This document shows, one piece after another, positions 61,333 through 61,376 of a stretch of 64,000 nucleotides of DNA. The position numbers and the translations under genes were made by a program. Below the pieces are notes generated by a model, which made no database searches, was not told the DNA's origin, and saw only the letters and a program-made list of their open reading frames with translations. Each line of letters starts with the position of its first letter. Position 1 is the stretch's first letter. The DNA lies in NCBI RefSeq assembly GCF_024223415.1, contig NZ_CP100500.1. One strand, given 5' to 3'. Source of the DNA: Escherichia coli. Its GTDB lineage: Bacteria; Pseudomonadota; Gammaproteobacteria; Enterobacterales; Enterobacteriaceae.

Positions 61333-61376
61333 AGTATTTTAGCCAGTAGGGCGCGGGATAATCCCGCGCAAGAATG

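What the first reader, a model, noticed from the sequence alone, without database searches (positions are those of the whole stretch)
61333..61376. GC-rich 19-nt perfect palindrome between the Rha gene and the SNF2 helicase gene
GCGCGGGAT-A-ATCCCGCGC (61351-61369) lies in the 44-nt gap between the two co-directional genes. There is no T-run after it, so it is not a simple terminator. It could be an RNA processing or stability stem, or a protein-binding site controlling helicase expression.
Basis: seen in the sequence. Interest (0 to 1): 0.3.

Follow-up and report, generated by a model that had tools for sequence, protein, structure and literature searches.

The report
Stem-loop ending a prophage antirepressor cassette
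The palindrome is a real, conserved RNA hairpin sitting just after the last gene of a small, portable, P22 immI-like antirepressor cassette in an E. coli prophage, in the place where such cassettes normally carry a terminator; it is ordinary gene-boundary punctuation that here lacks the usual run of U's.

Summary
The 19-nt palindrome is at 61351-61369, in the 44-nt gap between the Rha-like gene and the SNF2 gene, both on the minus strand. Neither strand has a T-run.

The perfect palindrome is unique to this window. Relatives share a 7-bp G+C stem (GCGCGGG/CCCGCGC) with loops of 3, 4, 5 or 7 nt. All variation falls in the loop and stability stays near -14 kcal/mol.

The hairpin travels with the Rha gene, not the helicase gene. 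It is absent when other cargo precedes SNF2 and present when a different gene follows Rha. Diverged cassettes carry unrelated hairpins at the same spot. One is a 12-bp stem. Another type is GGCGGC/GCCGCC, mostly followed by a U-tract, a canonical terminator.

The cassette (divergent Arc-family repressor, three operators around a TTGACA promoter, 58-aa gene, Rha-like antirepressor, hairpin) mirrors P22 immI, where a terminator follows ant.

Best reading: an RNA stem-loop that defines and protects the 3' end of cassette transcripts while allowing read-through into SNF2 and xis. A dimer-binding DNA site is excluded by the variable arm spacing.

Ordinary; low interest.

The parts
61351..61369 (-). 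Stem-loop: 7-bp invariant G+C stem GCGCGGG/CCCGCGC (61363-61369 pairs with 61351-61357). An optional 8th A-U pair and a UUA triloop occur in this window only. dG is -14.7 kcal/mol.
   Evidence: Variants in relatives.
61370..61376 (-). 7-nt spacer (CAUUCUU) between the Rha stop codon and the base of the stem. The spacing is 6-7 nt in all SNF2-adjacent relatives.
61333..61350 (-). 18-nt single-stranded leader CCUACUGGCUAAAAUACU up to the SNF2 AUG. It has no Shine-Dalgarno match. The first 16 nt travel with the hairpin in L009/L032, where a different gene follows.
61377..62099 (-). Rha-like antirepressor gene (240 aa). The N-terminal domain matches PHROG 63 'anti-repressor Ant' (2.5e-21). RefSeq names close homologues 'Rha family transcriptional regulator'.
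   Evidence: No Pfam PF09669 or NCBIfam hit at E<=0.01.
62126..62151 (+). Second cassette hairpin, in the gap between the 58-aa gene and Rha. On the + strand (antisense to the cassette) it is followed by GTTTTGTTTATT. It is a candidate terminator of a sar-like antisense RNA, or a bidirectional terminator.
   Evidence: P22 sar layout.
62159..62335 (-). 58-aa first gene of the cassette (function unknown, no family hit), in the position of arc in P22 immI.
62336..62448 (.). Divergent control region: a consensus -35 TTGACA (minus-strand sense) flanked by three palindromic operator-like sites (core CCACGGTGG; one of them is 62374-62390).
62449..62763 (+). Divergent Arc-family (ribbon-helix-helix) gene, 104 aa, in the position of mnt.
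   Evidence: (PF03869, 3.1e-12).
59938..61332 (-). SNF2-family helicase gene downstream of the hairpin. Its stop overlaps the start of the xis/AlpA-like HTH gene.

Best explanation
The palindrome is the DNA image of an RNA stem-loop that closes a self-contained, P22 immI-like antirepressor cassette. The cassette layout is: divergent Arc-family repressor | operators plus promoter | 58-aa gene | Rha-like antirepressor | stem-loop.

It sits where such cassettes carry their terminator (t_ant in P22). Because it has no U-tract, I infer it is not an efficient intrinsic terminator. I infer it acts mainly as a 3'-end-defining and protecting structure. Transcripts that end downstream, whether by Rho action on a poorly translated SNF2 leader or by endonucleolytic cutting in the A/U-rich single-stranded leader, would be trimmed back by 3'-5' exonucleases to the base of the stem. 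That would give a stable 58aa-rha message. RNA polymerase coming from the cassette promoter or from the upstream early operon could still read through into SNF2 and xis.

Shown:
- The hairpin exists and is stable.
- Its stem is conserved while its loop varies.
- It belongs to the Rha cassette, not to SNF2.
- Non-homologous hairpins occupy the same position in diverged cassettes.
- The cassette architecture matches immI.

Inferred: that the level of action is RNA, and the protection/read-through mechanism.
For: 1. Variation pattern. The 14 stem bases are invariant in all 21 copies, while the loop is AUUAU, AUUAC, AUUA, GUUAC or AGUAUAC. Three events among close relatives all fall in the central 5 of 19 nt (P about 0.018), and L038 adds more. 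dG stays between -13.7 and -14.7.
2. Structure is kept where sequence is not:
   - L037 keeps the outer GCGCG/CGCGC and replaces the top with a different self-complementary segment (12 bp, -20.2 kcal/mol, z -5.2).
   - L005, L012, L040 and L042 carry an unrelated GGCGGC/GCCGCC stem with three different loops, 10-12 nt after the Rha stop.
3. The hairpin goes with Rha.
4. Most of the GGCGGC-type copies have U-rich tails (scores -3.76 and -3.19). P22 t_ant is a canonical terminator starting 19 nt after ant. So this position is a transcript-end position.
5. Neither strand of the window has a U-tract.
6. In E. coli, stable stem-loops not followed by U-rich sequence mark and protect the 3' ends of Rho-terminated transcripts, with rut sites just downstream (PMC6061677). 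The 80 nt downstream here are 27 C / 11 G, the 99.5th percentile of the prophage sense strand.
7. SNF2 has no SD behind this hairpin but does when other cargo precedes it (GGAGA in L004, AAGGG in L003; read).
Against: - No expression data exist; the RNA-level role is inferred.
- The rut-like C>G bias is not shared by L038 or L009.
- Close relatives are only about 2-6% diverged, so stem invariance among them is weak evidence on its own.
- The A-U / A.C / G-C changes at pair 8 are energetically neutral. They could equally be quasipalindrome template-switch corrections (PMC7202029), a mutational rather than selective process.
- A 7-8 bp hairpin 7 nt after a stop codon would be partly melted by a terminating ribosome.
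Confidence: 0.45

Rival explanations
1. It is a genuine, though weak or factor-assisted, transcription terminator or attenuator. It would stop part of the transcription coming from the cassette promoter, so that the helicase and excisionase genes are not expressed whenever the antirepressor is.
For: - It occupies the slot of P22 t_ant and of the canonical terminators in L005, L012 and L040.
- The stem is G+C-rich and stable.
- The same operon contains a canonical co-directional terminator at 63440-63421, so the phage tolerates or uses intra-operon termination.
Against: - The tail score equals random expectation (-1.87 against a median of -1.95).
- The first 8 nt after the stem are CCUACUGG.
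- All three SNF2-adjacent versions (window, L038, L037) lack a U-tract, which looks like a maintained property and not decay.
- From established knowledge, E. coli RNA polymerase needs a U-tract for efficient intrinsic termination.
Confidence: 0.2
2. It has no present function. It would be a relic hairpin, for example a terminator that lost its tail, or a palindrome generated and kept perfect by template-switch mutation, that has simply not had time to decay.
For: - Low divergence among the E. coli copies (94-98% identity).
- Perfecting changes at pair 8 give no energetic gain. This is the signature of quasipalindrome correction (PMC7202029).
Against: - Three sequence-unrelated hairpins lie at the same position in cassettes whose Rha proteins are only 52-74% identical.
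- The stem is untouched while the loop has changed at least four times, including length changes.
- L037 replaced the apical part with another self-complementary segment.
Confidence: 0.15
3. It tunes translation of the downstream gene. The hairpin would shorten the effective distance between the Rha stop codon and the SD-less SNF2 start, aiding re-initiation or standby binding. Alternatively, the C-rich segment stacked on the hairpin would pair with the start region and mask it.
For: - The SNF2 start lacks an SD only in the Rha-adjacent arrangement.
- RNAfold pairs CCUA.CUG with the AUG region in the window.
- RNAfold pairs CCC.UGCUAG with the SD of the downstream gene in L009 (extra -6.4 kcal/mol).
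Against: - The second helix contributes only about -1.3 kcal/mol in the window, is absent from the centroid, and is absent in L038 and L037.
- A hairpin also follows Rha when the next gene has a good SD (L005 GAGAGG, L009 GGAGGGG).
Confidence: 0.08
4. It acts as DNA, either as a binding site for a dimeric regulator or as a cruciform/hairpin recombination site that marks the border of the mobile cassette.
For: - It is a perfect palindrome in this window.
- It lies at a mosaic boundary. Homology with other prophages breaks within a few codons of the SNF2 start, and the cassette occupies two different slots.
Against: - Half-site spacing varies (13, 14, 16 and 27 nt), and the inner arm bases differ between relatives.
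- No second copy occurs at the other cassette border or anywhere else in 321 kb of fetched DNA.
- The relocated cassette carries a different hairpin.
Confidence: 0.05

Closest known systems
Terminator t_ant of the Salmonella phage P22 immI region (annotated at NC_002371.2 16012-16035)
   Same: - It lies immediately after the antirepressor gene (19 nt after the stop in P22, 7 nt here).
- It ends a unit made of a divergent RHH repressor, operators, a small first gene and the antirepressor.
- A co-directional gene needed for lytic growth follows (gene 9 in P22, SNF2 here).
- Stem stability is similar.
   Different: - P22 t_ant has U7 after the stem; the window hairpin has none.
- The antirepressor here is Rha-like, not Ant.
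- The first gene is not an RHH protein.
- The host phage is a polA/SNF2/VRR-NUC-type prophage, not a lambdoid.
[quoted passage not shown]
   Same: An energetically stable stem-loop that is not followed by a U-rich stretch. In this window a strongly C>G segment follows immediately downstream.
   Different: - No 3'-end mapping exists for this locus.
- The downstream C>G bias is not conserved in all relatives.
- The element lies between two co-directional ORFs rather than at the end of an operon.
Intercistronic stem-loops that stabilise the upstream segment of polycistronic mRNAs (e.g. the REP hairpins between malE and malF; own knowledge)
   Same: A G+C-rich hairpin without a terminator tail, placed between co-directional genes, that would favour the upstream cistron.
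   Different: It is not a dispersed repeat. There is a single copy per genome and no REP consensus.
Moron-type insertions in prophages (promoter + gene(s) + terminator inserted between conserved genes; own knowledge)
   Same: - The cassette has its own promoter and a closing hairpin.
- It sits in a variable cargo slot that holds other cargo in sister prophages, including candidate defence genes (PDC-S42, PDC-S35/TIR).
   Different: The closing hairpin here lacks the U-tract expected of a moron terminator.

Membership tests
Canonical intrinsic (Rho-independent) terminator | Stable G+C-rich stem-loop shortly after a stop codon | tested here: met
   7-8 bp stem, -14.7 kcal/mol, 7 nt after the Rha stop.
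Canonical intrinsic (Rho-independent) terminator | U-rich tract directly 3' of the stem | tested here: not met
   Tail CCUACUGG has 2 U in 8. Score is -1.87 against a random median of -1.95. The antisense strand scores -1.59. The terminator scan did not call it.
Canonical intrinsic (Rho-independent) terminator | Termination of RNA polymerase at the site | not testable with these tools
   Needs in vitro transcription or Term-seq.
Protective 3' stem-loop of Rho-terminated transcripts (PMC6061677) | Stable stem-loop not followed by a U-rich sequence | tested here: met
Protective 3' stem-loop of Rho-terminated transcripts (PMC6061677) | rut-like C-rich/G-poor region immediately downstream | tested here: inconclusive
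   Window 27 C / 11 G in 80 nt (99.5th percentile) and L037 at the 95th percentile. L038 is at the 43rd and L009 at the 6th.
Protective 3' stem-loop of Rho-terminated transcripts (PMC6061677) | Steady-state RNA 3' end at the base of the stem; dependence on Rho, PNPase and RNase II | not testable with these tools
   No transcriptome data available.
P22 immI-type antirepressor module | Divergently transcribed ribbon-helix-helix repressor gene | tested here: met
   62449-62763(+) matches PF03869 Arc at 3.1e-12.
P22 immI-type antirepressor module | Palindromic operators overlapping divergent promoters | tested here: met
   Three CCACGGTGG-core palindromes surround a TTGACA. Relatives have the same layout with a different palindrome. 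This is sequence evidence only; binding was not tested.
P22 immI-type antirepressor module | Antirepressor gene as last gene | tested here: inconclusive
   The N-terminal 109 aa match PHROG 63 'anti-repressor Ant' at 2.5e-21. There is no Pfam Rha/ANT or NCBIfam hit at 0.01. The C-terminal half has no characterised relative.
P22 immI-type antirepressor module | Small Arc (RHH) repressor as first gene | tested here: not met
   The 58-aa protein has no hit in Pfam, PHROGs or NCBIfam.
P22 immI-type antirepressor module | sar-type antisense RNA across the antirepressor ribosome-binding site | tested here: inconclusive
   A conserved hairpin with an antisense U-tract lies at 62126-62163. Only a weak candidate promoter was found, and there is no Rfam hit.
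P22 immI-type antirepressor module | Terminator directly after the antirepressor gene | tested here: inconclusive
   A hairpin is present in every relative. The U-tract is present in L005, L012 and L040, weaker in L042, and absent in the window, L038 and L037.
Operator for a dimeric DNA-binding protein | Conserved half-sites at fixed spacing | tested here: not met
   Arm spacing varies by -1, +2 and +13 nt, and inner arm bases vary.
Dispersed palindromic repeats (REP/BIME and similar) | Many copies per genome sharing a consensus | tested here: not met
   One copy per locus, always at this junction. The covariance model finds no other site in the 64-kb window.
Any Rfam family | Score at or near the gathering threshold | tested here: not met
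   No hit at gathering, and none at E<=10 over 61200-62500 apart from noise.

The most novel reading that the evidence does not exclude
The U-less hairpin is a regulated gate rather than passive punctuation. It would be a factor-dependent attenuator, or a binding hairpin for a phage protein, that decides whether transcription or translation started at the antirepressor cassette continues into the SNF2 helicase and excisionase genes. That would couple antirepressor firing to replication and excision. In this reading, the deliberate absence of a U-tract in the SNF2-adjacent arrangement, and its presence in most copies of the xis-adjacent arrangement, would reflect two different wiring solutions.
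Probability: 0.08. Interest if true: 0.45.

Novelty: new member of a known kind. Interest (0 to 1): 0.17.

Why it matters
On its own it matters little; it is gene-boundary punctuation. It has three modest uses:

1. It is a clean natural example of a hairpin kept by selection without a U-tract, next to sister cassettes that keep a canonical terminator at the same position. This gives a ready-made pair for testing what U-less hairpins do in E. coli.
2. It helps delimit a portable, immI-like antirepressor cassette in a widespread yfhL-integrated E. coli prophage family. The cassette's operator specificity swaps between relatives.
3. It marks the edge of a cargo slot that carries candidate defence genes in other strains.

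Tried and rejected
**Searches that found little or nothing**
- tblastn of the Rha C-terminal half against sequenced phages and plasmids: no match (one search failed on a frame error).
- The genome-contig scan returned only 40%-identical Rha genes that overlap the next gene and have no gap.
- The metagenome scan anchored on the Rha C-terminal codons gave only 2 contigs, both of known types.
- Rfam at gathering and permissive thresholds: nothing.

**Alignment and covariation attempts**
- MAFFT could not keep the 3' arms of L038 and L037 in register.
- A covariance model recovered L038 but not L037.
- So no formal covariation statistic is available for the main hairpin. Among alignable copies its 7 pairs never vary, which is neutral evidence.

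**Mechanistic ideas tested or considered**
- The rut-like C>G test was positive in the window and L037 but negative in L038 and L009.
- A second weak helix masking the SNF2 AUG is not conserved.
- I checked by eye for a promoter reading into SNF2 from the gap. TAAAAT is a decent -10, but no -35 lies at 16-18 nt and the TSS would fall at or after the AUG. Rejected.
- RNase III site rejected: the stem is far shorter than two helical turns.
- lambda-type nut/boxB rejected: loop length and sequence vary, the loop is not GNRA-like, and no boxA lies in the 44-nt gap.
- Terminator for the opposite strand rejected: the tail is AAGAAUG.

Full report
**1. Observation**

The sequence GCGCGGGAT-A-ATCCCGCGC is at window 61351-61369. 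It lies in the 44-nt gap 61333-61376 between two ORFs that are both on the minus strand:
- a 240-aa Rha-like ORF (62099..61377, stop TGA at 61379-61377);
- a 464-aa SNF2-family ORF (61332..59938).

In mRNA sense the gap reads UGA-CAUUCUU-[GCGCGGGAUUAUCCCGCGC]-CCUACUGGCUAAAAUACU-AUG.

The 19-mer folds as an 8-bp stem with a UUA triloop at -14.7 kcal/mol (z = -4.0). It is the dominant element of the local fold.

No U/T run follows it on either strand. TransTerm-style tail scores are -1.87 and -1.59, against a random median of -1.95. A canonical terminator elsewhere in the same operon scores -4.58.

Perfect inverted repeats of this size are 8-fold enriched in the window over dinucleotide shuffles (16 against 2.05). 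G+C-rich ones are 20-fold enriched (4 against 0.2). The only correction concerns the strand.

**2. Context**

The window is E. coli chromosome. lepA/lepB are 100% identical to many strains, and an rrn operon, tmRNA, rncO and ohsC are present. From about 58.3 kb it enters a prophage integrated next to yfhL, with the integrase at 58341-59744.

The same prophage family occurs in at least 144 of 5426 complete E. coli genomes. In most of them, similarity to the window stops within a few codons of the SNF2 start.

The stretch between SNF2 and the VRR-NUC gene is a variable cargo slot:

| Locus | Cargo in the slot |
|---|---|
| window, L001, L002 | Rha, 58-aa gene, two Arc-family genes |
| L003 | hypothetical gene, Dcm methyltransferase, PDDEXK nuclease |
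| L004 | three opposite-strand genes |

Some alternative cargo in and around this variable region matches candidate defence families. The first L004 gene matches PDC-S42 (6e-40). A TIR-domain gene in L003, lying beyond the conserved ANR gene and next to the DNA polymerase gene, matches PDC-S35 (7e-109).

The hairpin is present only with the Rha cargo.

**3. Conservation**

I collected 21 copies of the junction from E. coli genomes, IMG/VR contigs, metagenomes and Logan assemblies. In mRNA sense the SNF2-adjacent variants are:

| Variant | Where found |
|---|---|
| GCGCGGG-AUUAU-CCCGCGC | window only |
| GCGCGGG-AUUAC-CCCGCGC | commonest |
| GCGCGGG-AUUA-CCCGCGC | several relatives |
| GCGCGGGG-UUA-CCCCGCGC | L018 |
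| (G)GCGCGGG-AGUAUAC-CCCGCGC(C) | L038, whose Rha C-terminal half is only 69% identical |

The perfect 19-nt palindrome is therefore private to the window. L018 has a different perfect one. The 14 stem bases never change, while the loop changes in sequence and in length (3, 4, 5 and 7 nt). Three independent events among the close relatives all fall in the central 5 of 19 nt (P about 0.018). Stability is constant at -13.7 to -14.7 kcal/mol.

The eighth pair is A-U in the window, A.C in most copies and G-C in L018. This looks compensatory but gains almost no energy. Quasipalindrome template-switch correction (PMC7202029) explains it equally well.

The motif occurs once per locus, and a covariance model finds no other site in the window. 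It is not a dispersed repeat.

**4. Structure is kept where sequence is not**

This is the strongest evidence of function.

- L037 (Rha C-terminal half 74% identical) keeps the outer GCGCG/CGCGC. It replaces the top with a different self-complementary segment, giving a 12-bp stem (-20.2 kcal/mol, z -5.2), 7 nt after the stop and again without a U-tract.
- In L005, L012, L040/L041 and L042/L043 the Rha stop is followed after 10-12 nt by an unrelated stem GGCGGC/GCCGCC. It has three different loops (CUGAGU, CAGAGA, UCAUUG). In most copies a U-rich tail follows (UGUUAUUUUG; tail scores -3.76 and -3.19). That is a canonical intrinsic terminator.
- Very distant Rha genes (40% identity) overlap the next gene and have no gap.

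**5. The hairpin belongs to the Rha cassette, not to the helicase gene**

- In L009 and L032 the same Rha 3' end, the hairpin and the next 16 nt precede a different 94-aa gene with a strong SD. SNF2 comes after that gene.
- In L005, L040 and L042 the whole unit lies downstream of SNF2, directly before the xis/AlpA-like gene.

The unit is [Arc-family gene, divergent | 58-aa gene -> Rha -> hairpin]. It is a portable cassette that always ends in a hairpin.

**6. What the cassette is**

The 113-nt divergent region 62336-62448 holds a consensus -35 TTGACA. Three palindromic operator-like sites with a CCACGGTGG core flank it. Relatives keep the same layout with another palindrome (CTCAC..GTGAG).

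The divergent gene is an Arc/RHH protein (PF03869, 3.1e-12). The N-terminal 109 aa of the Rha-like protein match PHROG 63 'anti-repressor Ant' (2.5e-21). Pfam's Rha model and NCBIfam do not reach E 0.01 on this copy. RefSeq calls the close homologues Rha family.

The annotated P22 record (NC_002371.2) shows the same plan:
- mnt, divergent;
- operators and promoters;
- arc;
- the sar antisense RNA, with its terminator in the arc-ant gap and its promoter inside the start of ant;
- ant;
- a terminator starting 19 nt after ant (ACCCAGC-UUCG-GCUGGGU plus U7);
- the co-directional gene 9.

The window's hairpin is in the t_ant slot.

**7. Mechanism**

The following are shown:
- a stable hairpin whose stem is under constraint;
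- attachment to the 3' end of the cassette;
- a position that is a transcript-end position in sister cassettes and in P22;
- absence of a U-tract in all three SNF2-adjacent versions.

The following is inferred. The element acts in RNA. It is a poor intrinsic terminator in E. coli, so polymerase can continue into SNF2 and xis, whose ORFs overlap. Transcripts that end or are cut downstream would be trimmed back to the stem, giving a stable 58aa-rha message. This is the class Dar & Sorek mapped in E. coli: stable stem-loops without U-rich tails that protect Rho-terminated transcripts, with rut sites just downstream (PMC6061677).

Two points are consistent with this. The 80 nt after the hairpin are 27 C / 11 G, the 99.5th percentile of the prophage sense strand. 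SNF2 has no SD here. However, the C>G bias is not shared by L038 or L009, so this prediction is only partly met.

I give this reading 0.45. The rivals are:

| Rival | Confidence |
|---|---|
| Weak or factor-assisted terminator | 0.20 |
| No current function (relic) | 0.15 |
| Translational tuning of the downstream gene | 0.08 |
| DNA-level site | 0.05 |

The DNA-level reading is essentially excluded for a dimeric binder, because the conserved outer arms are 13, 14, 16 or 27 nt apart in different relatives.

**8. Comparison and novelty**

In function it is closest to t_ant of P22 immI and to the protective U-less stem-loops of E. coli. It is not a member of the canonical intrinsic terminator class, because the U-tract test failed. 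It matches no Rfam family, is not a dispersed repeat, and is not an operator.

It is a new member of a known kind, an intercistronic or 3'-end stem-loop closing a moron-like cassette. Interest is low.

The cassette around it is mildly more interesting than the palindrome. It is portable, immI-like, and swaps operator specificity between relatives. It also has a second conserved hairpin that, on the opposite strand, is a canonical terminator placed like that of the P22 sar RNA. This cassette is still a variation on a well-known theme.

Noticed in passing
window 62336-62448 (palindrome 62374-62390 among them): The divergent control region between the 58-aa gene and the Arc-family gene holds a consensus -35 TTGACA. 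It is flanked by three palindromic operator-like sites (CACCACGGTGGTG, AACCACGGTGGTTT, GACCGCAGTGGTTC in minus-strand sense). L009, L037 and L042 have the same layout with a different palindrome (CTCAC..GTGAG), which suggests swapped repressor/operator specificities.
   Followed up: partly
window 62126-62163 (+ strand): A second conserved hairpin, GCGCTGATAG-TTACCG-CTACCAGTGC, lies in the gap between the 58-aa gene and Rha. On the strand antisense to the cassette it is followed by GTTTTGTTTATT. A roughly 60-nt antisense RNA ending here would cover the Rha SD, like sar RNA in P22 immI. Only a weak candidate promoter was found (TTGCTT-18-TAGAGT, 62064-62093). The stem is 88% paired in 10 relatives, covariation is not significant, and there is no Rfam hit.
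   Followed up: partly
window 63421-63440 (- strand): A canonical terminator-like hairpin, GCCCCTGCACTGTCAGGGGC plus TTTTT, lies between the 157-aa gene (63455-63928) and the PerC/ANR-like gene (63178-63399), inside a co-directional gene string. This implies partial termination or antitermination in this prophage's early operon.
   Followed up: no
L003 3334-6200; L004 3337-5081 (sister prophages at the same yfhL site): The stretch between SNF2 and VRR-NUC is a cargo hotspot. L004 carries three opposite-strand genes, and the first matches PADLOC PDC-S42 (6e-40). L003 carries a Dcm methyltransferase and a PDDEXK nuclease in the slot. L003 also has a TIR-domain protein matching PDC-S35 (7e-109), which lies further along, between the ANR gene and the DNA polymerase gene.
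   Followed up: partly
L005 2295-3815; L040 1805-3316; L042 1796-3304: The whole Arc/58-aa/Rha/hairpin cassette occupies a second slot in some relatives, between SNF2 and the xis-like gene rather than upstream of SNF2. This shows that it moves as a unit within this prophage family.
   Followed up: partly
window 59938-59944: The SNF2 stop overlaps the start of the 66-aa AlpA/HTH_17 xis-like gene (annotated in relatives as 201 nt), so helicase and excisionase appear translationally coupled. The 132-aa ORF listed at 59741-60139 is a longer in-frame extension of that gene.
   Followed up: no
window 61380-61769 (Rha C-terminal 130 aa): The C-terminal half of the Rha-like protein has no Pfam, PHROG or NCBIfam match. 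It has no tblastn match in 50,697 phage or 72,556 plasmid records, and only 5 clusters among 5.8 billion proteins. Its last roughly 20 residues (…RKRWxHPQFGNFTYYADLI) are nearly invariant even at the DNA level across otherwise diverged copies.
   Followed up: partly
L037 2173-2884; L038 2207-2974; L040 2501-3261; L042 2501-3249: In several metagenome and Logan relatives the Rha gene is called as two ORFs. Either the N-terminal Rha domain and the C-terminal part are separate, or there is a short extra ORF at the 3' end. These may be frameshifts or pseudogenisation, or assembly errors. The hairpin after the last stop is kept regardless.
   Followed up: no
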